IMG/VR virus record: IMGVR_UViG_2737471841_000005
Location: 1-22,828 of that record
Length of the DNA: 22,828 nucleotides
Strand: one strand, 5' to 3'
From: a virus
Taxonomy: Duplodnaviria > Heunggongvirae > Uroviricota > Caudoviricetes
Part shown: positions 40 through 17,706 of the stretch, piece after piece
Layout of the letters: each line of letters begins with the position of its first letter
How positions within the stretch are numbered: position 1 is the first letter of the stretch
Made by a program: the position numbers and the translations under genes
Notes under the pieces: model-generated
Seen by the model: the letters and a program-made list of their open reading frames with translations, nothing else
The model's database searches: none
Told to the model about the DNA's origin: nothing

Positions 40-402
40 GGGGCTGATTCTGGATTCGACGGGATTTGCGAAACCCAAGGTGCATGCCGAGGGGCGGTTG
101 GCCTCGTAAAAAGCCGCAAAAAATAGTCGCAAACGACGAAAACTACGCTTTAGCAGCTTAATAACCTGCTTAGAGCCCTCTCTCCCTAGCCTCCGCTCTT
201 AGGACGGGGATCAAGAGAGGTCAAACCCAAAAGAGATCGCGTGGAAGCCCTGCCTGGGGTTGAAGCGTTAAAACTTAATCAGGCTAGTTTGTTAGTGGCG
301 TGTCCGTCCGCAGCTGGCAAGCGAATGTAAAGACTGACTAAGCATGTAGTACCGAGGATGTAGGAATTTCGGACGCGGGTTCAACTCCCGCCAGCTCCAC
401 CA
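40..402 (+). ncRNA. ssrA: tmRNA (transfer-messenger RNA, SsrA)
   Basis: Begins GGGGCTGATTCTGGATTCGACGGG and ends ...GGACGCGGGTTCAACTCCCGCCAGCTCCACCA, 363 nt, matching my memory of E. coli ssrA; contains the tag reading frame; possible -10 TATACT at 20..25 upstream. Confidence 0.95.
129..161 (+). other. tmRNA tag-peptide reading frame (ANDENYALAA + TAA)
   Basis: GCA AAC GAC GAA AAC TAC GCT TTA GCA GCT TAA read directly in the sequence; canonical enterobacterial degradation tag. Confidence 0.9.
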
Positions 403-403
403 A
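358..403 (+). repeat. attL core: 46-bp direct repeat lying in the 3' end of ssrA
   Basis: ATGTAGGAATTTCGGACGCGGGTTCAACTCCCGCCAGCTCCACCAA recurs identically at 17707..17752; identity breaks on both sides. Confidence 0.85.
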
Positions 404-575: not shown

Positions 576-1289
576 ATGGACTTCAACCTGAACAAAAAAA
601 TGCCAGTTAATAGATATCTTGTGATAATAGTTTTTGTCCTTTTAATCTTAGCCTGTATGCAGTTTATTTATCTTTGCCTTCGTTCATTAAGCATTGCCCC
701 AAACTATACGGGGACTGTAAGTGACATTATAATAGCTACAACAAATATTATTTTAGCTACCTACGCCGTTCGTGCATTCAAAAACTTATTTAAAGATAAA
801 CTATCCGATAATGCCATTAGTAAAATAGATACAGCATTGATGTCTCTCGATGATTGCATAGATAGTTTTTCAAGCTTATTTTTAAATATGACACTTATTA
901 AGATTTATAAAAACACTAATAACCCCAAGGACCCTCAGTTAGTTAAACAGCTCGATGAAGCAGCAAAAAACATCGAAAAAGCAACAAGTTCAGCCTACAA
1001 GGCAAGATCTATAATTGGCTCATTAACTCGTTGGAATATAAGCTTAAACACAGAAAAAGGAATAAGACTAAACCAACTTACCGCTGATGTTTTTGAGTTA
1101 GGCATGCAGGCAACAAATATGTATATCGCACTAATAAATGAAATAAACCCTAACTCCCCATACAACTCTTTAACTCATAGACCATTTGATGAGTTATTTA
1201 ACGAATTTAATGAAGAAAAGACCAGAGTTGAAGACGAAAGCAATGAATTAAAAGAGTTCTCTATTCATGAAATATTTAAAATCAAATAA
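576..1289 (+). CDS. Hypothetical membrane-anchored protein (AT-rich cargo gene between attL and ogr)
   Basis: 237-aa ORF; ATG at 576 with GAGG 6 nt upstream; hydrophobic N-terminal segment (YLVIIVFVLLILACMQFIYLCL) then a charged, helix-prone domain; visibly AT-rich versus the phage genes; no family recognised. Confidence 0.7.
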   Translation: MDFNLNKKMPVNRYLVIIVFVLLILACMQFIYLCLRSLSIAPNYTGTVSDIIIATTNIILATYAVRAFKNLFKDKLSDNAISKIDTALMSLDDCIDSFSSLFLNMTLIKIYKNTNNPKDPQLVKQLDEAAKNIEKATSSAYKARSIIGSLTRWNISLNTEKGIRLNQLTADVFELGMQATNMYIALINEINPNSPYNSLTHRPFDELFNEFNEEKTRVEDESNELKEFSIHEIFKIK

Positions 1290-1391: not shown

Positions 1392-1607
1392 TCAGTAAAC
1401 TAATTGCTCCTGCATCCCTTTGGGATGCGGTGGGGCGGCACTGATTTTCTCGGGACGACAAACAGAACGAACAAAGGTTTCATGCGTTACAAACGTATGC
1501 CCACACTCAATATTAGTGCACTGATTGTAACGCTCTTTGGTTTGAGAGGAGACTTGAAAACTACTGCGAGTATGTGCGGCCTGACCACACAACGGACAAT
1601 TCATCAT
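1392..1607 (-). CDS. ogr: Ogr-type late transcription activator (C4 zinc finger)
   Basis: 71 aa, MMNCPLCGQAAH...CTNIECGHTF; Cys pattern and size as in P2 Ogr; located after gene D as in P2. Confidence 0.85.
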   Translation of the reverse strand: MMNCPLCGQAAHTRSSFQVSSQTKERYNQCTNIECGHTFVTHETFVRSVCRPEKISAAPPHPKGMQEQLVY

Positions 1608-8513: not shown

Positions 8514-8589
8514 AGTGGCGAACCTCCTGATTGGATTAGGCTTCGCCCTATGTTGAAGTGATTGTGCCTGACAAACAGCTAAGCGCAGT

Positions 8590-8607
8590 TGTGTCGTTAT
8601 TCACACA
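8590..8607 (-). promoter_or_regulatory. Candidate Ogr-dependent late promoter element (TGT-N12-ACA dyad) for the FI operon
   Basis: TGTGTCGTTATTCACACA dyad about 85 bp upstream of the FI start codon; matches the P2 late-promoter activator site pattern. Confidence 0.4.
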
Positions 8608-8655
8608 AAATAACGGTATTTGTCTGCTTGCAGGGATAATCAACATAATGCTGAT

Positions 8656-9228
8656 TCAGGGGGATTCATTGATCTTATTTGCCGGAAATTTTCTATAAAT
8701 GGTAGAAACGCCTACATCAAAAATCAGTGCAATACGCTGTCTTGATTCTCCGGCCTCGAGTAAACGCCCAATCTGTGCCCACTGTTCGGTGGTCAACTTA
8801 GGATGGCGTCCACCTACTCTGCCTTTGGCACGAGCTGCAGCCAGCCCTGCCCTGGTACGTTCAACTATCAGTTCGCGTTCCATTTCAGCCAGGGCACCCA
8901 TGACATGAAAAAAGAAACGGCCCATTGGGGTACTGGTATCAATACTGTCAGTCAGGCTTCTGAAATTCACACCACGCTGGCGCAACTCTTCTATCAGCGT
9001 AACAAGATGCCGCATACTGCGCCCCAACCTGTCCAGCTTCCAGACAACCAGCGTGTCTCCTGCCGATAGTGTCCTGAGTAGTTTTTTCAGCCCCGGTCTG
9101 TCGGACTTAGTGCCACTGATTTTGTCCTCAAAAATCTGCTCACATCCCGCGCAGTTCAGTGCATTACGTTGCAAATCGGTGTTCTGGTCATTTGTTGACA
9201 CGCGTACATAGCCAATAAGCATGATCAT
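8656..9228 (-). CDS. Serine DNA invertase, Pin/Gin/Cin/Hin family
   Basis: 190 aa, MLIGYVRVSTNDQNTDLQRNAL... with catalytic Ser motif and C-terminal HTH; likely true start at the MLIGY Met (9222). Confidence 0.9.
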   Translation of the reverse strand: MIMLIGYVRVSTNDQNTDLQRNALNCAGCEQIFEDKISGTKSDRPGLKKLLRTLSAGDTLVVWKLDRLGRSMRHLVTLIEELRQRGVNFRSLTDSIDTSTPMGRFFFHVMGALAEMERELIVERTRAGLAAARAKGRVGGRHPKLTTEQWAQIGRLLEAGESRQRIALIFDVGVSTIYRKFPANKINESP

Positions 9229-9276
9229 CCCCCTGAATAAAAACCGGAGATGATGCCAGTTAGCTGTTACCTCTGC

Positions 9277-9302
9277 ATTTTCTTAAACGTTGGTTTGGGA
9301 GA
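9277..9302. other. Invertase crossover site (gix/pix-like, 26 bp)
   Basis: Reverse complement TTCTCCCAAACC-AA-CGTTTAAGAAAA resembles the gix half-site TTATCCAAAACC with a central AA dinucleotide; about 50 bp upstream of the invertase start, as gixR is for gin. Confidence 0.55.
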
Positions 9303-9663
9303 AGCAGCGAAACGGGGTGTGGGAACAGGGGAAAATCAGATACCGGACATGGCTTCTTTTGCCAGTGGTGATGGATGGATGAAATTACCCAACGGTAAAA
9401 TTCTGCAATATGGTCGAGGTGAGGCTATGCCGAAATTATCGACGCAAACAATGAGGATTACATTTCCTATCCCTTTCCCTAAAAAAGCGGACTGCGCCAT
9501 TCTTACCCATTCTGGTGATGGCGGTGCGCCTTTAGGCGCTGGGCGAGGGTTCGTGATGACTGCAGAAGGCCCTACGTTAACCGGCTTTAATTCTGCTTAC
9601 AGAACGTCATCAACCAGCGACACGGTATCTATGCATTACAGTTGGTGGGCTGTTGGTGAGTAA
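9277..9663 (+). pseudogene. Orphan tail-fibre variable C-terminal segment (Sv'-like)
   Basis: Reading frame opens at the crossover site and runs away from the invertase; Gly/Ser/Thr-rich fibre-tip-like sequence; no constant N-terminal fibre part in the window. Confidence 0.45.
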
Positions 9664-9674
9664 TTTTATTCAGG

Positions 9675-9850
9675 GTGATTTATATGAACGAATATGTTTA
9701 TAGTGCCAAGCATAATGCTTTTTTCCCTGTGGATATGATTGATAAATATAAATCAGTAGGATGGGATTTATCAGATGCTAAGGAGGTGAATCAAAATATT
9801 GTCAGTGAGTTTATGGCTGAACCGCCACAAGGAAAAGTCCGTATTTCCGC
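9675..9850 (+). pseudogene. Tail-fibre assembly (Tfa/U'-like) gene, N-terminal fragment
   Basis: Starts MNEYVYSAKHNAFFPVDMIDKYKSVGW, resembling the N-terminus of phage tail-fibre assembly proteins; recognisable sequence stops after about 55 codons where the gpA-like gene overlaps on the other strand. Confidence 0.45.
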
Positions 9851-10951
9851 GATAAGCTCCAGACCTTTAACACAGACCATCATCTCATTGCGGCGATGCG
9901 CAGGGTTGCTGCTGCTGGCGTTTACCACATCTTCCATATCCAGCGTGTCGCCGTCTTCGTTCACCAGTTCATGAGAACGAAAAAACTCCAGCGACTTACG
10001 GCGCTGCTCACGTTTATGCATCACGGCTTCATAGCTGACATAGGGGGATGCTTTTTTGCTGACCAGGCAGACAGCACGCAACTGCTCTTCCCGCCATTCG
10101 CAACGCATCTTCCATAATTTCCGATACCACCAGTCGGCACACAACATACGCGCCAGCGAACCCGGAATGAGTTCATAGGGCACGGGTTTACGGCGGTTTC
10201 TTTTCCGACGGAGTTGCTCAAACGCAGGCGGAATAACATCCAGACGCAGGGTTTCCGCTGCCACCTTTTCCCATGTTTTGCGGATTTCTTCTGGCTTAAC
10301 GTCATCGGTGGCATACAAATCGCCACAAGCTGCATCAAGACACATGCTCATATGCGCAGCAACAAGGGTGGACAGGCGTTTCACCTGATCCTGACTCATT
10401 TCAGGCAGGATCAGCAGGCCGTCCAGCCCTTCATGGCTTGCCATAAAGCGAAAAGAAGTGGATAGCTGACTCTCGCGTACATGCTCCAGTCGTTCCAGAC
10501 ATGGCTTAATCGTCTCACGCAAATAGCGGGAATAAGCCTTTGGCCTGCCCAGGCTGCTGAAGTATTCAATACGTTGCATCAGCGGCTTGCTGATATGGGA
10601 AGGCTGGGCGTTGACGTCCGCCAGAATGACCATGTCTGGATTAAAACGCTGCTGCTCATGCGCCAGCTTTGCCCGGCTAATGAGCTTATCCTGCTCCATT
10701 TCGCGCTGGACAGGATCACGGGATTCATTAAAGAAATAACGCTCCCAGACCTGATCACTCAGTGCCTCGCGGCGCAGTTGTTCCTGCTCGTTATCGGCAG
10801 CGTACAGAGTGATCAGGTTTGAAAGCGCAGAAACCGGCGCAACTTCTGCCGGGTCCAGATAAGGGTTAATAGCCTTTTTCGGGCTGTCCCATGAGAATGC
10901 TGCGGCGGCCTCGTTAAAGCCGCTGCAGTTGTTCATATCAGCATGGCTCAT
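9791..10951 (-). pseudogene. gpA-like replication initiation protein, C-terminally truncated by a deletion
   Basis: 386-aa ORF coupled to dam upstream (ATGA overlap) in the gpA position; about half the length of P2/186 gpA and ends in non-conserved sequence overlapping the tfa fragment. Family call is by position and weak recall. Confidence 0.45.
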
Positions 10952-11805
10952 GCACGCACTCCGTACACGGCAGAACTATCCACGCCACGCGAAGGATCAA
11001 ATCCCACCCAGCAGCGCGCCCCAGAAACAGCGATGATTTCTGTTGCAGATTTACTCTCACCAGCTGCTACGCCGATGCTGCGTTTTGCCTTGATGTAGTG
11101 GTGAGTAAAATTGCGATACAGCGAACGGATCAGGGATGTGTCACTGTTAGAAACAATGACCGGATGTCCTTCTGATGACCGATGTTCAAGAACGGATGCC
11201 AGGTGATACTGGTCATCTTCAGTGAAGCCGTCAGTGTGATAACCGGAAAACGTGCCGTCATACGGCGGATCGCAATACACCACATCCCCCGCCTTCAACA
11301 TCGCCAGCGTTTCATCAAAGCTGGCGCAGATAAACGTTGCCCGCTGGGCTTTCTCTGCAAATGCGCGAATTTCTTTTTCAGGGAAATACGGATTTTTATA
11401 ATTACCGTAGGGAATGTTGAAATACCCGCTCTTGTTATAGCGACATAACCCACGGTAACCATGACGATTGAGATACAGAAAATATACCGCTTTCATGAAA
11501 TCAGTAATTTCAGTGGAGTAATTAAACTCCTGCCTTATGTTGTAATAAGCCACCTCCCTGTTTGCTTCCTCAAATAAAGCTCTGGCACGAGATATAAATG
11601 CCTCACAATCAGCAGCAACCTTTTTATAGAGGTTGATTAAATCAGGATTAATATCCGCAACAAGATAGCTGGGGTAATCCGTCTCCATCATCACAGCACA
11701 GGAACCCGCGAAAGGTTCAACCAGTCGCGGGCCAGCAGGAAGGTGTTTTTTCAGTTCGGACATAATGGCGGTTTTATTTCCCGCCCATTTCAGGATGGTG
11801 CTCAT
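10948..11805 (-). CDS. dam: DNA adenine methyltransferase (Dam-like, GATC N6-adenine MTase)
   Basis: [11 protein letters not shown]...LVEPFAGS...DPPY motifs as in E. coli Dam; GGAGGTG RBS 5 nt before the ATG at 11805; overlaps the TraR-like stop. Confidence 0.9.
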
Positions 11806-12029
11806 ACAGCACCTCCGTTGTAATGTTTGCCTTTCAGCTCTGCAATTTCCTGGCAGGTAATGCAAAGCTGCACACCCGGAATGGCACGGCGGCGTGCTGG
11901 CGGAATTGGCGCTTCACACTCAATGCAAAGCACGCGAGACACGCCCGGTGTTTTGGCACGGGCAGCACGGATATGGCGCTGGCGTTCTTCTTCAACGCGC
12001 TGCTGTACGAGATCCATTGCATCAGCCAT
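11802..12029 (-). CDS. TraR/DksA-family C4 zinc-finger protein
   Basis: 75 aa with CIECEAPIP...CITCQ Cys pairs; typical small P2-like early-region gene. Confidence 0.8.
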   Translation of the reverse strand: MADAMDLVQQRVEEERQRHIRAARAKTPGVSRVLCIECEAPIPPARRRAIPGVQLCITCQEIAELKGKHYNGGAV

Positions 12030-12268
12030 TAGTGGATCTCCTGCGCTTCGTTCTGGATTGCTTCAGCAGTCACACGCAGCAGTTCTGCCGCTTCCACGTG
12101 GTTTAGCTGACGGGATGAGATATGACACGCCAGGCTATCAAGGCGAGCTGCCATTGCTTCAGCCCTTGCCCGGCGTTCTTCCAGACGAGCCTCTGTCAGT
12201 AAAATATTAAGCCCTGCATCATCCGGTCCGGTTTTAGTCATGAGGATTTCAATATTACGCATAATCAA
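12029..12268 (-). CDS. Hypothetical phage early-region protein
   Basis: 79-aa ORF in the early operon, tightly packed with neighbours; no family recognised. Confidence 0.5.
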   Translation of the reverse strand: MIMRNIEILMTKTGPDDAGLNILLTEARLEERRARAEAMAARLDSLACHISSRQLNHVEAAELLRVTAEAIQNEAQEIH

Positions 12269-12329
12269 TTCTCCTGAATTTAGATAAAGGGATGCTCGGC
12301 GGGTTTACGCCATTAATTTCATTAGTTGG

Positions 12330-12671
12330 TTAATTCGGCATGGTTAGCCGTCTGGGAAATAAGCTCACCACTGCACGAAAATGATTCATTGCTTTAATCA
12401 ACTCCCGCTTTTCGTCAGTGGTCAGCTCATTGATGCTGATGCTATGACGTTCAGCCGGAATTTTTGCCATAAAGAATATGGCTGCCAGTGCTCGTTTATT
12501 TTGTTCGTTATTGATATCCCGTGGATCACGCATATCTTTAATAAACCGCTCAAGCTCTGACTCAATATTCAGGCCAAAAACTTTCGCCCTTAATTCCGCT
12601 ATGTGATTAAGTCCATTCAGGCGTTCACCGGGGCTTAATGGAACAGTCGCCGCAGCGCCTTCAATAGCCAT
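12330..12671 (-). CDS. Hypothetical phage early-region protein
   Basis: 113-aa ORF in the early operon; no family recognised. Confidence 0.5.
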   Translation of the reverse strand: MAIEGAAATVPLSPGERLNGLNHIAELRAKVFGLNIESELERFIKDMRDPRDINNEQNKRALAAIFFMAKIPAERHSISINELTTDEKRELIKAMNHFRAVVSLFPRRLTMPN

Positions 12672-12835
12672 TTGTTCCCCCGTTTTTTCGTAGATAGTTC
12701 TGCCAGCAATTCATCTTGTGAACGGCACGGATGCCAGCGTTTACCATCCTCACCCATGATCCAGCCGTGACCGTAGTGCATTGCCGGACTTTGTTTTACC
12801 AGCAGCGATGCAAATGATGGTTCTTTCGTCAGCAT
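12635..12835 (-). CDS. Hypothetical small phage protein
   Basis: ORF downstream of cII; likely start at the internal Met (MLTKEP), avoiding overlap with cII. Confidence 0.4.
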   Translation of the reverse strand: MLTKEPSFASLLVKQSPAMHYGHGWIMGEDGKRWHPCRSQDELLAELSTKKRGNKWLLKALRRLFH

Positions 12836-12842
12836 AAGCACC

Positions 12843-13352
12843 TCACAGCAAACCGAATGAAGCACCGAGGCCGGTTACAGTATCAACTGCACTTGCCATC
12901 GCAGGATTAACCTGTAAACGGGCCTGCAATGAAACAGCAGCTAACGCCATCAGTCGTGTAACAGAGTTAATGCTGCTGATAGCATCACGACGACCTGCAC
13001 TGGTTTTTACATCGCCAGATACCGCACCTGCAGCAACACGCCCGATCTCTGCGGTTGCACTCATGACGTAATGTGGCAGTTTCTCTTTTGCCACCTCATT
13101 AATCGGTACACATGGCAGGCAGTGAATCTGTGCCAGAAAACCGTCTACCAGCGTTGAATCTTCCGTCAGATCGGTAAGTAGCCAGATATCTGGCGCATTG
13201 AGCTGATGCGGTTGATCTGGGTTGAGTTTGTTTCGCAGAGTCTGGACATTCATTCCTGAACGTTCTGCCAGCTTCGCCATATTGTGACGAAGTGCAAAAG
13301 CTCTACAGGCTTCATCAAAATGCGGGTGTTTGGAAATCTTATAATCAAACAT
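12843..13352 (-). CDS. cII: 186-type CII lysogeny-establishment regulator
   Basis: 169 aa, MFDYKISKHPHFDEACRAFALRHNMAKLAE...; size and second position in the rightward operon match coliphage 186 CII. Confidence 0.7.
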   Translation of the reverse strand: MFDYKISKHPHFDEACRAFALRHNMAKLAERSGMNVQTLRNKLNPDQPHQLNAPDIWLLTDLTEDSTLVDGFLAQIHCLPCVPINEVAKEKLPHYVMSATAEIGRVAAGAVSGDVKTSAGRRDAISSINSVTRLMALAAVSLQARLQVNPAMASAVDTVTGLGASFGLL

Positions 13353-13384
13353 GCTACCCCCTTAGAAAGTTCTCATAATTGAAC

Positions 13385-13627
13385 TTACTTACCAACAATG
13401 ACGCGGAAGTTGGAATGACCGAGGGATTCACGGACCTGATCGGTTTTGTACATTAAATAACGCAGGCTTACGCGGCCTTTGTTTTTTTCTTTCTTGACCA
13501 TGTATTTAGCAAGCTGACCATGATGAATTTTTTGATACACAGAGCCGCGGGAGATACCTTCCCATTCCGCGAACTCTGCAGGCGTAGCCATCTCTTTTGG
13601 TACACGAATTGAAATATCAGTGCTCAT
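13385..13627 (-). CDS. apl: Apl/Cox-type excisionase and transcriptional regulator
   Basis: 80-aa basic HTH protein, first gene of the lytic operon, divergent from cI; GGAG RBS upstream. Confidence 0.7.
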   Translation of the reverse strand: MSTDISIRVPKEMATPAEFAEWEGISRGSVYQKIHHGQLAKYMVKKEKNKGRVSLRYLMYKTDQVRESLGHSNFRVIVGK

Positions 13628-13685
13628 AGTGCAGTATCTCCCGATTAAGGTTTGGTTTACGTCGTTTTATCTCGTTTTACTTGAT

Positions 13686-13729
13686 TCAATATTTGATACA
13701 TCGAGATACTACGATCCAATATTTGATAC
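13686..13729. repeat. Two 13-14-bp direct repeats (CAATATTTGATAC) spaced 30 bp apart, bracketing the pR -10; candidate CI operators
   Basis: Copies at 13686..13699 and 13716..13729; second tandem pair TCGTTTTA at 13662..13669 and 13672..13679. Confidence 0.45.
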
Positions 13730-13734
13730 GTCAA
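13706..13734 (-). promoter_or_regulatory. Candidate lytic promoter pR for apl-cII (-35 TTGACG, 17-bp spacer, -10 TAGTAT)
   Basis: Minus-strand hexamers at 13729..13734 and 13706..13711 with 17-bp spacing, about 75 bp upstream of the apl ATG. Confidence 0.55.
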
Positions 13735-13746
13735 CAGGATTAAAAA

Positions 13747-14379
13747 ATGATACAGGTAAAGGTTGGAGAGAATACAGGGGGAAGAGAGGCTATCCATAGA
13801 CTAATGGCAGCCTATGATTTCAAGTCCAGACAGCAACTTTGCGATCACTTAGGCGCATCAAAAAGCACCATGGCAAACAGATACTTAAGAGATAGTTTTC
13901 CTGCAGAGTGGGTGATTCAGTGCGCCTTGGAAACAGGAGTTTCTTTACTGTGGCTAACCACCGGACAGGGGGAGCCAGGTCCAAACATTGAACCTAAAAA
14001 AAATATCAATTCCGTGAACTCCAGCAAGGTTGTACCTCTTTCTGAACTAGTATCTCCTGAAATTGACAAGGCGACTCTCAACGGTGGTTTATTGGTCGAT
14101 GCTGGAAAAGCAATCATTGATAGCAGCATACTCCCCTCAGACTCAAGCAACCTACTGCTGGTGACTACTTCTGGTGATTCTTATTTAATAGATCGCAACC
14201 AAACACCACCAGTAAATGGTATGTGGTTAGTCGATATTGACGGGATAAAAAGCATTGTTAAATTGACTCGACTTCCGGGAAACAAATTAGTAGTGCATCA
14301 GGATGATTCATCGTTTGAGTGTGGCCTAGATGACATTGAGGTAGTAGGCCGCGCACTGAAAATCATTAAGAGCCTTTGA
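13747..14379 (+). CDS. cI: 186-type CI immunity repressor
   Basis: 210 aa; N-terminal HTH region with ...CALETGVSLLWLTTGQGEP resembling 186 CI; immediately precedes int on the same strand. Confidence 0.8.
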   Translation: MIQVKVGENTGGREAIHRLMAAYDFKSRQQLCDHLGASKSTMANRYLRDSFPAEWVIQCALETGVSLLWLTTGQGEPGPNIEPKKNINSVNSSKVVPLSELVSPEIDKATLNGGLLVDAGKAIIDSSILPSDSSNLLLVTTSGDSYLIDRNQTPPVNGMWLVDIDGIKSIVKLTRLPGNKLVVHQDDSSFECGLDDIEVVGRALKIIKSL

Positions 14380-14380
14380 T

Positions 14381-15397
14381 ATGACCATCAGAAAACAGCC
14401 GAACGGAAAATGGTTGTGTGAGTGCTATCCCAATGGACGCAATGGTAAGCGCGTGCGTAAGCAATTTGCTACGAAAGGCGAAGCCATTGCTTTTGAAAGC
14501 TTCACAATGGAAGAAGTGAATAAAAAACCGTGGTTGGGTGAAAAGGATGATCGGCGACGCCTATCAGAATTAATTGAGCTTTGGTATTCCCTGTATGGTC
14601 AGACACTCGCAGACCCCAAGCGCCTCATGGCGAAACTTAGAATTATCTGTAATGGTCTAGGCGACCCCATCGCCTCAGAACTGACAGCCGGTGACTTTAC
14701 GAAATACCGCGAAGCACGATTAAAAGGTGACGTTCGTAACGAAGACGGCACACTAATGTCGCCAGTAAAACCACGCACGGTGAATCTTGAGCAACGTAAC
14801 CTATCATCGGTTTTCGGCACATTGAAAAAACTAGGCCACTGGTCAGCACCAAATCCTCTCGCCGGGCTGCCAACATTTAAAATCGCTGAGGGGGAACTGG
14901 CGTTCCTGACCTCGGAAGAAATTAAACGTCTGCTAGATGCCTGCGCTGATTCTCAAAACCCCAGTCTGCTTTTGATTGCAAAAATATGCCTGGCCACCGG
15001 CGCACGCTGGAGTGAAGCTGAAAACCTGCAGGGCCATCAGTTATCTAAATACCGCATCACTTATACCAAGACGAAGGGTAAGAAAAACCGCACCGTGCCG
15101 ATATCTCAAGATCTGTATGACGAACTCCCCAAGAACAGAGGGAAGCTATTCACCCCGTGCAGAAAAGCCTTTGAACGAGCAGTAAAGCGAGCTGGCATCG
15201 AGCTGCCAGAGGGCCAATGCACTCACGTGCTACGTCATACATTCGCCAGCCATTTTATGATGAATGGCGGAAACATACTGGTGCTGCGCGATATTCTGGG
15301 CCATGCCGATATAAAAATGACGATGATTTACGCCCACTTTTCGCCCGATCACCTTGAAGATGCGGTAACTAAAAACCCTTTATGCAACTTAAGATAG
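14381..15397 (+). CDS. int: Tyrosine integrase, P2/186 family
   Basis: 338 aa; N-terminus like P2 Int (PNGRNGKRVRKQFATKGEAIAFE), catalytic ...TGARWSEA..., HVLRHTFASHFMMNGG and MIYAHF (R-H-R-Y). Confidence 0.92.
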   Translation: MTIRKQPNGKWLCECYPNGRNGKRVRKQFATKGEAIAFESFTMEEVNKKPWLGEKDDRRRLSELIELWYSLYGQTLADPKRLMAKLRIICNGLGDPIASELTAGDFTKYREARLKGDVRNEDGTLMSPVKPRTVNLEQRNLSSVFGTLKKLGHWSAPNPLAGLPTFKIAEGELAFLTSEEIKRLLDACADSQNPSLLLIAKICLATGARWSEAENLQGHQLSKYRITYTKTKGKKNRTVPISQDLYDELPKNRGKLFTPCRKAFERAVKRAGIELPEGQCTHVLRHTFASHFMMNGGNILVLRDILGHADIKMTMIYAHFSPDHLEDAVTKNPLCNLR

Positions 15398-15713
15398 AGT
15401 AACTTATGAAAACAAACTCAAACTATTTACAAATATAATATTCAGCAGGTTATCCATTCTCATTTAACTCTTCAGACTGAGTTTAGGTTTTATTTATAGA
15501 ATAAGATAATTTTTACATCACAAAAAAACATATAAGCCCTCATCTTTGTTGTATAAAAACATCAAAGATGCCACATTCAAAAATAGTAGAAAAGCATAGC
15601 ATTGCAACATTAAAAAGAAACCAATAAAAAACAGTCATTAGAAAATGAAAAAAACAAAAACATTTTTTATCGAAGCTTCAGTCTGACTACTAGTTTGACT
15701 CTGCAATTAACTT

Positions 15714-15745
15714 TCAAGATGATCAATATTTATTGATCATCTTGA
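15714..15745. repeat. Near-perfect 32-bp palindrome (15-bp arms, TT centre) with two GATC sites
   Basis: TCAAGATGATCAATAT-TT-ATTGATCATCTTGA; lies about 30 bp past the 3' end of the deaminase gene in the AT-rich int/cargo spacer. Confidence 0.7.
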
Positions 15746-15777
15746 AGCTTACCTCAGGAAGGATGAGTATAATATTT

Positions 15778-17511
15778 CTACTCAAGGAGATATTCTAACT
15801 CATCTTTTATCGGGATAATTTGCTCATAAAGTCGGTGATATGACTTCCCAATTGCGCCTCTAAATTGTATTAACTTTGGTGGCTTACTACCTATATTAAT
15901 AATATGGTCTTGAGCTATACCTGGGTAGGGATCAATAAATACAATTTCAGATATACCTAACTGATAAGCTTTTTTCGCACACAACTCACAGGGACTGGCA
16001 GTTGTATACAACTTCCCCCCCAGAACGCCAATACCACCATATTTTGCAAGTTGTAAAAATGCGTTTTCCTCAGCATGTAATGCACGTGTATGAACTTGAT
16101 TACCTTTTTTCTCTTTATCAAGATCATTATGTATATCTTTAAAACAATAAGATAAGTTCCTGCCTCTATAAATATCACCAGTTTTATCTATCGCCCTAAA
16201 ATTTAAGAGTTTCTCATTAGCTTTAATTCTGAAAGAACTATTATTTCTCTCATAATGACTGTACGTTTTTTCATCAAAATCGTTCATTAGGCCATCTAGA
16301 GATCTCATAGAGCAAGGAATCTGACCGTTGGCAACATCATTCCAACCAACTGATTTTATTGAATTATCACCATCAGTTACTACAGCTCCCACCTGTCTAG
16401 ATATACAGCCAGAGTTTAATTTTACCGTATACGCAACTTGCATAACCCTTTCCATTGCAGTAGGTGTTATCAGACCAGGATGCTTCATCAGTGCGATGTA
16501 CCACGCTAATTGTGCTTTTAAAATATTGTCATTATCAAATTCATTTTTTGGGTTAAAAATGTGTATATCTGATAGTTCAATACATTTAGTTACATTTGGA
16601 TTGGTGAGATGTTTGTAAGAGTTATCACCTTTACCTGACTCTACAGAATCTATTTCCTCTATCTGCTTTTCTGAAAACTTATGTAGTTTCCGCAAATAGT
16701 TTGTTCGATGTTCATCTGGGGCATTTATTGACATTAAATGAAATGCAGAATATCTATCCTTAAAAAATTTTGCCTCATATGGATTTCTAATAGCATCTAT
16801 GACAATTAATGCGTTATCTCTTTTGCTTTTTCTTATTAATTTAATAACCCTATTAATAGTTTCCGGCAAATGAAAAACAGATTTAGGCATAAACTCTTTA
16901 TCTTCAAAATCGACTTCAATACGCCCACGACGTCTAATTGACTTACCTGCTAACTGATAGGCTGAAACATATAAATTTGAGTTTATCTCATTTAGTTCAG
17001 CTTTGAATTCTTTAGTAAATTTTCTAACTAACTTCAAAATTGATATAAATTTATTAATCGTTTTTTCATCAAGCTTCAATTCACTATTATGATCAAGCAA
17101 ATTCTCAATTACATTTTTAAATCTTGTCAAAATGAGATTATCTGAGAATACACCAAAAGTTAATACAATATCTAAATGCTCTTTACTGATAAATTTATTA
17201 GATGATAGAATGAATTCAGAAGCTTCCTCAACTGTTAACATCAGAAGATACGCTGAGATTAGGTCACTCACCTTAATTGAGTAAAAATTTTCCCAGTGAT
17301 TTTCTGCGAATTTTTTAACTATATTATAACGATGGACATCCAATCCCTTGTAAAACCCCTGTAATTTACTTACATCAGGGAAGACTGTTTTTTCGTTTTC
17401 AAGAATATTAGCTGTTGTTGTGCAACCAGAACCAGTTCGACCTGTCAAACCGACTAAAATAAACTGCCCATTTTCAAGGAAAAGCTCACTAACGAATTTT
17501 TTTTCTTTCAT
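15778..17511 (-). CDS. P-loop kinase-like / cytidine-dCMP deaminase fusion protein (AvcD/Dcd-type anti-phage candidate)
   Basis: 577 aa from ATG 17511 (GTG at 17514 in the track); N-terminal P-loop-like VGLTGRTGSGCTT, C-terminal zinc deaminase motifs HAEENA (around 16075) and PCELCAKK (around 15990); strongly AT-rich; sits between int and attR. Confidence 0.85.
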   Translation of the reverse strand: MKEKKFVSELFLENGQFILVGLTGRTGSGCTTTANILENEKTVFPDVSKLQGFYKGLDVHRYNIVKKFAENHWENFYSIKVSDLISAYLLMLTVEEASEFILSSNKFISKEHLDIVLTFGVFSDNLILTRFKNVIENLLDHNSELKLDEKTINKFISILKLVRKFTKEFKAELNEINSNLYVSAYQLAGKSIRRRGRIEVDFEDKEFMPKSVFHLPETINRVIKLIRKSKRDNALIVIDAIRNPYEAKFFKDRYSAFHLMSINAPDEHRTNYLRKLHKFSEKQIEEIDSVESGKGDNSYKHLTNPNVTKCIELSDIHIFNPKNEFDNDNILKAQLAWYIALMKHPGLITPTAMERVMQVAYTVKLNSGCISRQVGAVVTDGDNSIKSVGWNDVANGQIPCSMRSLDGLMNDFDEKTYSHYERNNSSFRIKANEKLLNFRAIDKTGDIYRGRNLSYCFKDIHNDLDKEKKGNQVHTRALHAEENAFLQLAKYGGIGVLGGKLYTTASPCELCAKKAYQLGISEIVFIDPYPGIAQDHIINIGSKPPKLIQFRGAIGKSYHRLYEQIIPIKDELEYLLE

Positions 17512-17706
17512 CACGTCCCACTTATGAATGCAAGAACAATTAGCATATTAATTATAATTTATTAACTAATTTTATTCTAGATGCTTGATGTAATGGCGGC
17601 ACTTTGGCGGCAGAGCATTAAAAACGCGTAAGACGAGCAAATACAAAATAACACTAACACATTGTTTTCAAACATAATCTACTGTTTTTACTATAATAAA
17701 AATGGT

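What the first reader, a model, noticed from the sequence alone, without database searches (positions are those of the whole stretch)
15778..17511. Kinase-like/deaminase fusion gene in the int-attR cargo slot: likely nucleotide-depleting anti-phage enzyme
The gene is far more AT-rich than the phage backbone, is the only gene between the integrase and attR, and lies convergent to int. Its product pairs an N-terminal P-loop nucleotide-kinase-like domain with a C-terminal zinc deaminase domain carrying H-A-E and P-C-x-x-C motifs. That architecture is the one reported for defensive deoxycytidine deaminases (Dcd/AvcD), which deaminate dC nucleotides on infection. I see no second protein gene beside it. 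This is the strongest candidate for the system of interest, though it appears to belong to an already described family.
Basis: partly seen in the sequence, partly recalled or inferred. Interest (0 to 1): 0.8.

Follow-up and report, generated by a model that had tools for sequence, protein, structure and literature searches.

The report
Known anti-phage dCTP deaminase in prophage
The gene is real and intact, but it is a well-known anti-phage enzyme that starves infecting viruses of the DNA building block dCTP, and a near-identical copy from the same chromosomal spot in E. coli U09 has already been shown experimentally to protect against phages.

Summary
A 577-codon ORF (15778-17511, minus strand; 33% GC against 52% for the backbone) is the only intact gene between the integrase and attR of a defective 186/P2-like prophage integrated at ssrA. 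The att sites are a perfect 46-bp repeat at 358-403 and 17707-17752.

- The protein passes NCBIfam's equivalog model "anti-phage dCTP deaminase" (425 bits, cut-off 400) and PADLOC dCTPase (1e-145).
- It folds into an N-terminal kinase-like domain and a C-terminal dCMP-deaminase domain.
- It keeps every residue shown to be essential in the E. coli AW1.7 enzyme, to which it is 72% identical.
- The construct Tal et al. synthesised from E. coli U09 (577 aa, "validated experimentally") starts in the same host flank. It runs through the same att core, attP arm and promoter at 97% identity.

So this is an already known system at an already recognised minor hotspot.

One question stays open. I found no sign of the AvcI-type RNA antitoxin described for Vibrio AvcD. 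Only 74 bp of the 5' flank belong to the cassette.

Side observations: the 380-bp spacer next to int is a decayed 208-aa gene, and an uncharacterised 237-aa ORF sits beside attL.

The parts
15778..17511 (-). Anti-phage dCTP deaminase gene (577 aa from the ATG; an alternative GTG lies at 17514)
   Evidence: NF041025 scores 425.4 bits against a cut-off of 400. PADLOC dCTPase gives 1.1e-145. phrog_8118 matches full length. The exact protein is in NCBI under this name. It is 72.3% identical to AW1.7 WP_045268677.1.
16477..17511 (-). N-terminal P-loop kinase-like domain (about aa 1-345). The P-loop GRTGSGCTT is aa 24-32, nt 17416-17442.
   Evidence: Foldseek matches to dephospho-CoA kinases, an adenylate-kinase-like protein and T4 dNMP kinase. 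The P-loop is invariant in 39 homologues. G29 and C30 are essential in AW1.7 and conserved here.
15781..16464 (-). C-terminal zinc deaminase domain (about aa 350-577). HAE is at nt 16069-16077 and PCELC at nt 15979-15993. There is a ~75-aa insertion between the two halves of the fold.
   Evidence: PF00383 at 1.6e-14. PDB sequence matches to T4, S-TIM5 and human dCMP deaminases. Foldseek E of about 1e-5 to 2w4l, 1vq2, 4p9c and 7fh4. C369 and C400 correspond to AW1.7 C370 and C401, which are essential.
17512..17585 (-). Cassette-specific 5' region of 74 bp. It holds a -10 TATAAT (17551-17556) and a Shine-Dalgarno-like AAGTGGGA (17516-17523).
   Evidence: Similarity to deaminase-free phages stops at about 17586. 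The -10 and the 5'UTR are conserved in the 89% relatives. The promoter is inferred, not shown.
17586..17706 (.). attP arm shared with ssrA-integrating P2-like phages. It includes CTGCCGCCAAAGTGCCGCCATT at 17592-17613.
   Evidence: 80-88% identity to Cartapus, RE2010, SEN8 and SopEPhi, which lack the deaminase. It is conserved across all 186-like alleles.
17707..17752 (+). attR core, a copy of the 3' end of ssrA
   Evidence: Perfect 46-bp direct repeat with 358-403. Partial tmRNA match.
358..403 (+). attL core at the 3' end of ssrA (tmRNA gene 40-402)
15708..15751 (.). Near-perfect hairpin 27-70 nt past the deaminase stop codon. It is a probable terminator but has no U-tract.
   Evidence: Inverted repeat I2. 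It dominates the fold of the 3' spacer, z = -2.1. It is not conserved in the 89% relatives.
15408..15616 (+). Decayed remnant of a 208-aa membrane-like gene (phrog_21256). The gene is intact in close relatives.
   Evidence: tblastn gives 42-44% identity over aa 2-61 and blastn 71-74%. The remnant has in-frame stops. phrog match.
14381..15397 (+). Prophage integrase, convergent with the deaminase gene

Best explanation
This is a prophage-borne, single-protein anti-phage dCTP deaminase of the family described by Tal et al. 2022 and Hsueh et al. 2022 (dCTP deaminase / AvcD). The lysogen expresses it from its own short promoter next to attR (inferred). The enzyme stays silent in healthy cells. When an infecting lytic phage tampers with host transcription, the enzyme deaminates dCTP, and probably dCMP, to deoxyuridine nucleotides. 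That empties the dC pool and stalls phage DNA replication. Both domains are needed. The chemistry and the trigger are taken from the AW1.7, U09 and Vibrio homologues, not shown here. The gene is a 2.2-kb low-GC cassette (15398-17585) inserted between the integrase stop codon and the attP arm of a 186-like phage that integrates at ssrA. The prophage has since lost about half its genome, but the defence gene is intact.
For: Family membership:
- Curated models are passed: NF041025 equivalog 425.4 bits against a 400 cut-off, PADLOC dCTPase 1.1e-145, PF00383 1.6e-14.
- RefSeq names it anti-phage dCTP deaminase in all 20 genomes that carry this allele.
- It aligns full length at 72.3% identity to the mechanistically characterised AW1.7 enzyme. 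All four residues whose mutation abolished defence are conserved.
- The AlphaFold model (pLDDT 78.7) has a dCMP-deaminase fold in the C-terminal part and a dephospho-CoA / dNMP-kinase-like fold in the N-terminal part.

Direct link to a tested gene:
- The first 399 nt of Tal et al.'s synthesised U09 construct equal window 17912-17515 at 97.2% identity.
- The U09 protein is 577 aa and flagged "Validated experimentally".

Selection and context:
- Substitutions are mostly synonymous across alleles: 155-172 synonymous against 62 non-synonymous codon differences to the 89% relatives.
- The slot is variable. It is empty in SEN8, holds a RES-domain gene in Cartapus, and holds deaminase alleles of 70-89% identity in other 186-like prophages.
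- The interval between the integrase and att of P2-like phages is a published minor defence hotspot (PMC13586616).

Trigger: T7 gene 5.7 escape mutants of AW1.7 and rifampicin activation of AvcD both point to transcription shut-off.
Against: - Nothing was measured for this exact allele.
- The supplement truncates the U09 sequence at 399 nt, so the coding regions could not be compared directly.
- Per Tal et al., U09 defended against fewer phages than AW1.7.
- The promoter has a perfect -10 but no good -35 and was not picked up by the consensus scan.
- How the enzyme is kept off is not established for this clade.
- The prophage is defective, so any benefit to the phage itself is moot.
Confidence: 0.92

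Rival explanations
1. It is a full AvcID-type type III toxin-antitoxin pair. An unrecognised AvcI-like RNA would be made from the 5' flank (17512 to about 17900, across the attP arm and att core). It would bind and inhibit the deaminase until phage-induced transcription shut-off lets it decay.
For: In V. cholerae, V. parahaemolyticus, P. mirabilis and E. coli H10407 the antitoxin RNA lies immediately 5' of avcD, in the same orientation and co-transcribed. The AvcI RNAs share no sequence similarity, so lack of similarity here is not informative. The U09 construct did include about 400 bp of 5' flank. The transcription-linked trigger is the same in both branches.
Against: - Only 74 bp of the 5' flank belong to the cassette. 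The rest is an attP arm shared with phages that have no deaminase.
- AvcI needs about 171 nt at minimum and is about 280 nt in full.
- The 195 nt between the ATG and the att core fold no better than shuffles, z = +1.2.
- There are no tandem repeats, no small gene and no Rfam match.
- The functional, non-toxic AW1.7 construct carried only 83 bp 5' of its ATG.
Confidence: 0.15
2. It is a nucleotide-metabolism enzyme that serves the phage's own replication, like the T4 Cd dCMP deaminase that feeds dTTP synthesis, rather than a defence.
For: The catalytic domain is homologous to T4, S-TIM5 and PBCV-1 dCMP deaminases.
Against: - It carries the extra kinase-like domain that defines the defensive family and passes the equivalog threshold.
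- It lies outside the lytic operons, has its own promoter, and is convergent to int.
- The same slot is empty or holds unrelated cargo in sister phages.
- The same gene occurs on a tRNA-Phe island and on an ICE.
- A near-identical allele defends when cloned alone.
Confidence: 0.03
3. It is a polynucleotide-editing (APOBEC-like) deaminase that mutates phage DNA or RNA, rather than one that depletes free nucleotides.
For: Weak Pfam hits to MafB19-deam and APOBEC_N, all below threshold. Foldseek gives secondary matches to TadA.
Against: The best matches are all dCMP or dCMP/dCTP deaminases. Tal et al. found no editing in DNA-seq or RNA-seq for the 72%-identical AW1.7 enzyme, and they did find dCTP depletion.
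Confidence: 0.02

Closest known systems
E. coli U09 dCTP deaminase (Tal et al. 2022, Nat Microbiol; IMG 2677870675)
   Same: It has the same length (577 aa) and the same locus: ypjA-side host flank, attR core, attP arm and promoter. The 399 nt available are 97.2% identical to the window. It was shown experimentally to defend E. coli MG1655 from its native promoter.
   Different: There are 10 mismatches and 1 gap in the 5' flank, including TACAAT in place of TATAAT at the -10. The prophage in the window is truncated.
E. coli AW1.7 dCTP deaminase (WP_045268677.1), the mechanistically characterised member
   Same: 72.3% identity over the full length. The P-loop GRTGSGC, the HAE and PCxxC motifs, and the structural cysteines are identical. 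It has the same two-domain architecture.
   Different: It sits on a tRNA-Phe integrative island, not in a prophage. The flanks are unrelated. It has a wider defence range than U09.
AvcID / DcdV-DifV (V. cholerae VSP-1, V. parahaemolyticus, P. mirabilis, E. coli H10407; Hsueh et al. 2022, 2023)
   Same: It is a kinase-like plus dCMP-deaminase fusion. It depletes dC nucleotides on infection and is activated by transcription shut-off.
   Different: AvcD has a cognate AvcI RNA of 171-280 nt encoded 5' of the gene. No such element could be found here, and there is little room for one. By the published residue numbers, the AvcD proteins are about 50-100 aa shorter. H10407's gene was not detectable by blastn with this gene as query.
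T4 Cd and cellular dCMP deaminases (ComEB, human DCTD), PBCV-1 bi-DCD
   Same: Homologous catalytic domain, zinc ligands and the insertion-bearing topology.
   Different: They are stand-alone metabolic enzymes of 140-190 aa without the kinase-like domain, and they have no defence role.
Defence hotspots of P2-like phages (Rousset et al. 2022; PMC13586616, 2026)
   Same: The gene is cargo in a variable slot of a P2-family prophage. The integrase-att interval is listed as holding 3% of P2 defence systems.
   Different: It is not one of the two major hotspots (gpA-gpQ and the tail-gene slot). In this window the gpA-gpQ hotspot has been deleted.

Membership tests
Anti-phage dCTP deaminase (Tal et al. 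2022; NCBIfam NF041025; PADLOC/DefenseFinder dCTPdeaminase) | Scores above the curated family threshold | tested here: met
   NF041025 equivalog 425.4 bits against a cut-off of 400, covering model positions 1-437. PADLOC PDLC02373 at 1.1e-145.
Anti-phage dCTP deaminase | C-terminal zinc-dependent cytidine/dCMP deaminase domain with H-A-E and P-C-x-x-C | tested here: met
   PF00383 at 1.6e-14. HAE at 479-481 and PCELC at 507-511, both invariant in 39 homologues. Foldseek matches dCMP deaminases at E of about 1e-5.
Anti-phage dCTP deaminase | N-terminal nucleotide-kinase-like domain, and a protein longer than 350 aa (Tal et al.'s inclusion rule) | tested here: met
   577 aa. The Pfam and NCBIfam kinase hits are only marginal (AAA_18 at 0.07, dephospho-CoA kinase at 0.043). 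The model's N-terminal half matches dephospho-CoA kinase, an adenylate-kinase-like protein and T4 dNMP kinase.
Anti-phage dCTP deaminase | Residues shown essential for defence in AW1.7 (G29, C30, C370, C401) | tested here: met
   They align to G29, C30, C369 and C400 of the window protein.
Anti-phage dCTP deaminase | Confers phage resistance and depletes dCTP on infection | not testable with these tools
   Validated in the literature for U09, which is the same locus with a 97% identical 5' flank, and for AW1.7. Not measured for this allele.
AvcID type III toxin-antitoxin system (Hsueh et al.) | A non-coding AvcI RNA of at least ~171 nt, encoded immediately 5' of the deaminase in the same orientation and co-transcribed | tested here: inconclusive
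   Several findings argue against it. Only 74 bp are cassette-specific. The 195 nt up to the att core fold at z = +1.2. There is no small ORF, repeat or Rfam hit. AW1.7 works with 83 bp of 5' flank. But AvcI has no sequence model, and 195-400 nt of 5' flank do exist, so an RNA cannot be excluded without transcript data.
AvcID type III toxin-antitoxin system | Toxicity (filamentation) of the deaminase when expressed without its RNA | not testable with these tools
   Requires expression experiments.
P2-family prophage cargo (moron) slot between int and att | Flanks are conserved, contents vary between related phages, and the composition is foreign | tested here: met
   In SEN8 the int stop codon is 3 bp from the attP arm. 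Cartapus has a RES-domain gene there. Other 186-like prophages have deaminase alleles of 70-89% identity, with or without a 208-aa ORF. GC is 31.6% against 51.6%.

The most novel reading that the evidence does not exclude
The U09/AW1.7 clade, including this gene, may be a true single-gene system with no cis-encoded AvcI-type RNA. If so, the link between phage tampering with host RNA polymerase and enzyme activation must run through something else. Candidates are the Lys-less P-loop domain sensing a labile host RNA or a nucleotide, or the enzyme's own mRNA. The family would then use two different ways of holding the enzyme off.
Probability: 0.35. Interest if true: 0.4.

Novelty: already known. 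Interest (0 to 1): 0.1.

Why it matters
It matters little as a discovery. The family, its chemistry, its defence role and even this locus (E. coli U09) are published, and genome annotation pipelines already name the gene correctly. The residual value is descriptive. It is a clean example of a defence gene kept intact in a decaying 186-like prophage, sitting in the minor integrase-att hotspot. It also shows that this clade has almost no room for the RNA antitoxin described for Vibrio AvcD, which sharpens an open question about how these enzymes are kept silent.

Tried and rejected
- Rfam found only tmRNA and the attR fragment, both at gathering thresholds over the whole window and at E<=10 over 15350-18000.
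- RNA folding of the 195-nt 5' flank gave no excess structure, z = +1.2.
- A search for tandem or antitoxin-type repeats and for small ORFs in the 5' flank found nothing.
- All-against-all comparison of the 5' and 3' flanks of 11 loci found only the shared attP arm and int. No deaminase-linked non-coding element appeared.
- The consensus promoter scan did not flag a promoter in 17512-17600. The TATAAT was found by eye.
- A PDB sequence search and Foldseek found no solved AvcD or dCTP-deaminase defence protein, only metabolic deaminases and kinases.
- A literature search for structural or activation work since 2023 found nothing new in the library.
- The final Hsueh et al. 2022 paper (PMC9830645) is not held, so I used the preprint.
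- The H10407 (ETEC) avcID locus could not be retrieved.
- The idea that the 208-aa ORF is an obligate partner is rejected. It is absent from the 70-76% alleles and from AW1.7, and it is a pseudogene here.

Full report
**1. The observation**

The ORF list shows one long reading frame at 15778..17514 on the minus strand, 578 aa from a GTG start. With the gene's own base composition, the chance of 577 consecutive stop-free codons is about 2e-22. The gene is 32.9% GC and the surrounding cassette 31.6%, against 51.6% for the prophage backbone. The integrase (14381-15397, +) is convergent with it.

A perfect 46-bp direct repeat links the 3' end of the tmRNA gene ssrA (358-403) with 17707-17752. The element is therefore a prophage integrated at ssrA, and the gene lies just inside attR. 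No other intact ORF lies between int and attR. The H-A-E and P-C-x-x-C motifs are at residues 479-481 and 507-511, and the P-loop is GRTGSGCTT at 24-32.

**2. What it is**

- NCBIfam's equivalog model NF041025, "anti-phage dCTP deaminase", scores 425.4 bits against a curated cut-off of 400.
- PADLOC's dCTPase model gives 1.1e-145.
- Pfam finds the deaminase domain (PF00383, 1.6e-14) but only marginal kinase hits.
- phrog_8118 matches end to end.
- The exact 577-aa sequence is already in NCBI under the name anti-phage dCTP deaminase, seen on 64 contigs.
- RefSeq annotates the gene this way in all 20 of 5,426 complete E. coli genomes that carry this allele. 44 genomes carry some allele.

An AlphaFold model built on 39 homologues (pLDDT 78.7) was compared with the PDB. 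The C-terminal part matches human, T4, cyanophage S-TIM5 and PBCV-1 dCMP or dCMP/dCTP deaminases (E of about 1e-5). The N-terminal part matches dephospho-CoA kinases, an adenylate-kinase-related protein and T4 dNMP kinase. No solved structure of a defensive member was found.

**3. Link to experiment**

Tal et al. (bioRxiv 10.1101/2021.04.26.441389; Nat Microbiol 2022) cloned two such genes, from E. coli AW1.7 and E. coli U09, and showed that both defend MG1655. For AW1.7 they showed infection-triggered dCTP depletion. Defence was lost in G29A/C30A (kinase-like domain) and C370A/C401A (deaminase domain) mutants. They found no DNA or RNA editing. T7 escape mutants mapped to gene 5.7, an inhibitor of host RNA polymerase.

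The AW1.7 genome is in the collection. Its protein (WP_045268677.1, 576 aa) is 72.3% identical to the window protein over the full length, and the four essential residues align to G29, C30, C369 and C400.

The U09 link is closer still. Table S5 of that paper gives the start of the synthesised U09 construct. Its 399 nt equal window 17912 to 17515 (minus strand) at 97.2% identity, running from the ypjA-side host flank through the att core, the attP arm and the promoter region. Table S1 lists the U09 protein as 577 aa, "Validated experimentally". The window therefore holds essentially the U09 system at the U09 locus.

**4. Anatomy of the locus**

Comparison with ssrA-integrating P2-family phages shows that window 17586-17752 (attP arm plus core) is shared with phages that have no deaminase.

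- In Salmonella phage SEN8 the integrase stop codon is 3 bp from that arm, so the slot is empty.
- In Escherichia phage Cartapus the slot holds a RES-domain gene.
- Other 186-like prophages carry deaminase alleles of 70-76% identity almost abutting int.
- Relatives at 89% identity in Citrobacter and Siccibacter carry the deaminase plus a 208-aa membrane-like ORF (phrog_21256) between it and int.

The window's 380-bp AT-rich spacer (15398-15777) is a decayed remnant of that ORF. About 60 N-terminal codons are recognisable, with in-frame stops. The ORF is absent from several alleles and from AW1.7, so it is not an obligate partner.

The cassette is thus 15398-17585. A 2026 survey lists the integrase-att interval as a minor defence hotspot of P2-like phages, holding 3% of their systems (PMC13586616).

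The prophage itself is defective. Window 9840-22828 is collinear (99.7% identity) with an intact prophage in CP184839. To the left of 9840, gene A is cut after about 386 codons and joined to an invertase and tail-fibre fragment, so the head, lysis and baseplate genes and the gpA-gpQ hotspot are gone. The deaminase gene remains intact. Its differences from other alleles are mainly synonymous: 155-172 synonymous against 62 non-synonymous codon differences to the 89% relatives.

**5. How it is kept off: the one open point**

In the Vibrio, Proteus and ETEC branch of the family (AvcID), the enzyme is inhibited by AvcI. This is a non-coding RNA encoded immediately 5' of the gene in the same orientation and co-transcribed. 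It is at least ~171 nt and about 280 nt in full. It decays when phages shut off host transcription.

I looked for an equivalent and found none.

- Only 74 bp of the 5' flank (17512-17585) belong to the cassette. They contain a TATAAT (17551-17556) and a short 5'UTR that are conserved in the 89% relatives.
- The 195 nt up to the att core fold no better than shuffled sequence, z = +1.2.
- There are no tandem repeats, no plausible small gene and no Rfam match.
- The 5' flanks of 11 loci share nothing beyond the attP arm.
- Tal et al.'s functional, uninduced AW1.7 construct carried only 83 bp 5' of its ATG.

These results argue that a dedicated 5' AvcI is not required in this clade. They do not prove it. 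AvcI RNAs share no sequence, the U09 construct did include 400 bp of flank, and the 3' ends of the constructs are not visible. I therefore rate AvcID membership as inconclusive and the working mechanism (dC depletion on transcription shut-off) as well supported by homology.

**6. Verdict**

The finding is an already known defence gene, at the locus where a 97%-identical flank was experimentally validated, in a recognised minor hotspot. Interest is low. The only non-trivial residue is the regulatory question above.

Noticed in passing
window 576-1289 (+): A 237-aa ORF, 32% GC, with a hydrophobic N-terminus, lies between attL and ogr (1392-1607, minus strand). It is a second cargo slot on the other side of attP. 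It has no hit in Pfam, PADLOC, PHROGs or NCBIfam. Phage Cartapus carries an unrelated 'exonuclease' gene at the same position.
   Followed up: partly
window 15408-15616 (+); intact copies at L012:4874-5500 and L010:2108-2734: The AT-rich spacer between int and the deaminase is a pseudogene remnant of a 208-aa membrane-like protein (phrog_21256, function unknown). In Citrobacter and Siccibacter prophages the intact gene accompanies the 89%-identical deaminase allele.
   Followed up: yes
window about 8514-9840: This is a prophage deletion junction. Replication gene A is truncated (9791-10951, 386 aa) and abuts a tail-fibre C-terminal fragment (9250-9663) and a Pin/Cin-type DNA invertase (8656-9228). 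The head, lysis and baseplate genes and the gpA-gpQ defence hotspot present in the intact relative (L001) are missing.
   Followed up: partly
window 21924-21990 and 21602-21732: There is a second copy (94% identical) of the sequence that follows the att core at attL (398-464, including the ssrA-terminator-like hairpin). There is also a 131-nt segment 76% identical to part of the invertase gene (8963-9093). Together they look like the scar of another P2-like element beyond ypjA.
   Followed up: no
window 17912-21301 (-): Fragmented autotransporter ORFs (108, 700 and 330 aa) correspond to the ypjA/ehaD adhesin pseudogene, which is annotated with internal stops in the collinear genome CP184839.
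   Followed up: partly
L003, L004 and L013 compared with window 15398-17585: Otherwise similar 186-like prophages at ssrA carry deaminase alleles only 70-76% identical to this one and to each other, each with its own 75-110-bp promoter region. This suggests repeated cassette replacement at the same slot rather than divergence in place.
   Followed up: partly
window 10948-11865 (-): A Dam-like orphan N6-adenine methyltransferase gene sits in the prophage early region (PF02086; PADLOC orphan MTase at 1e-111). This is ordinary for 186-like phages.
   Followed up: no
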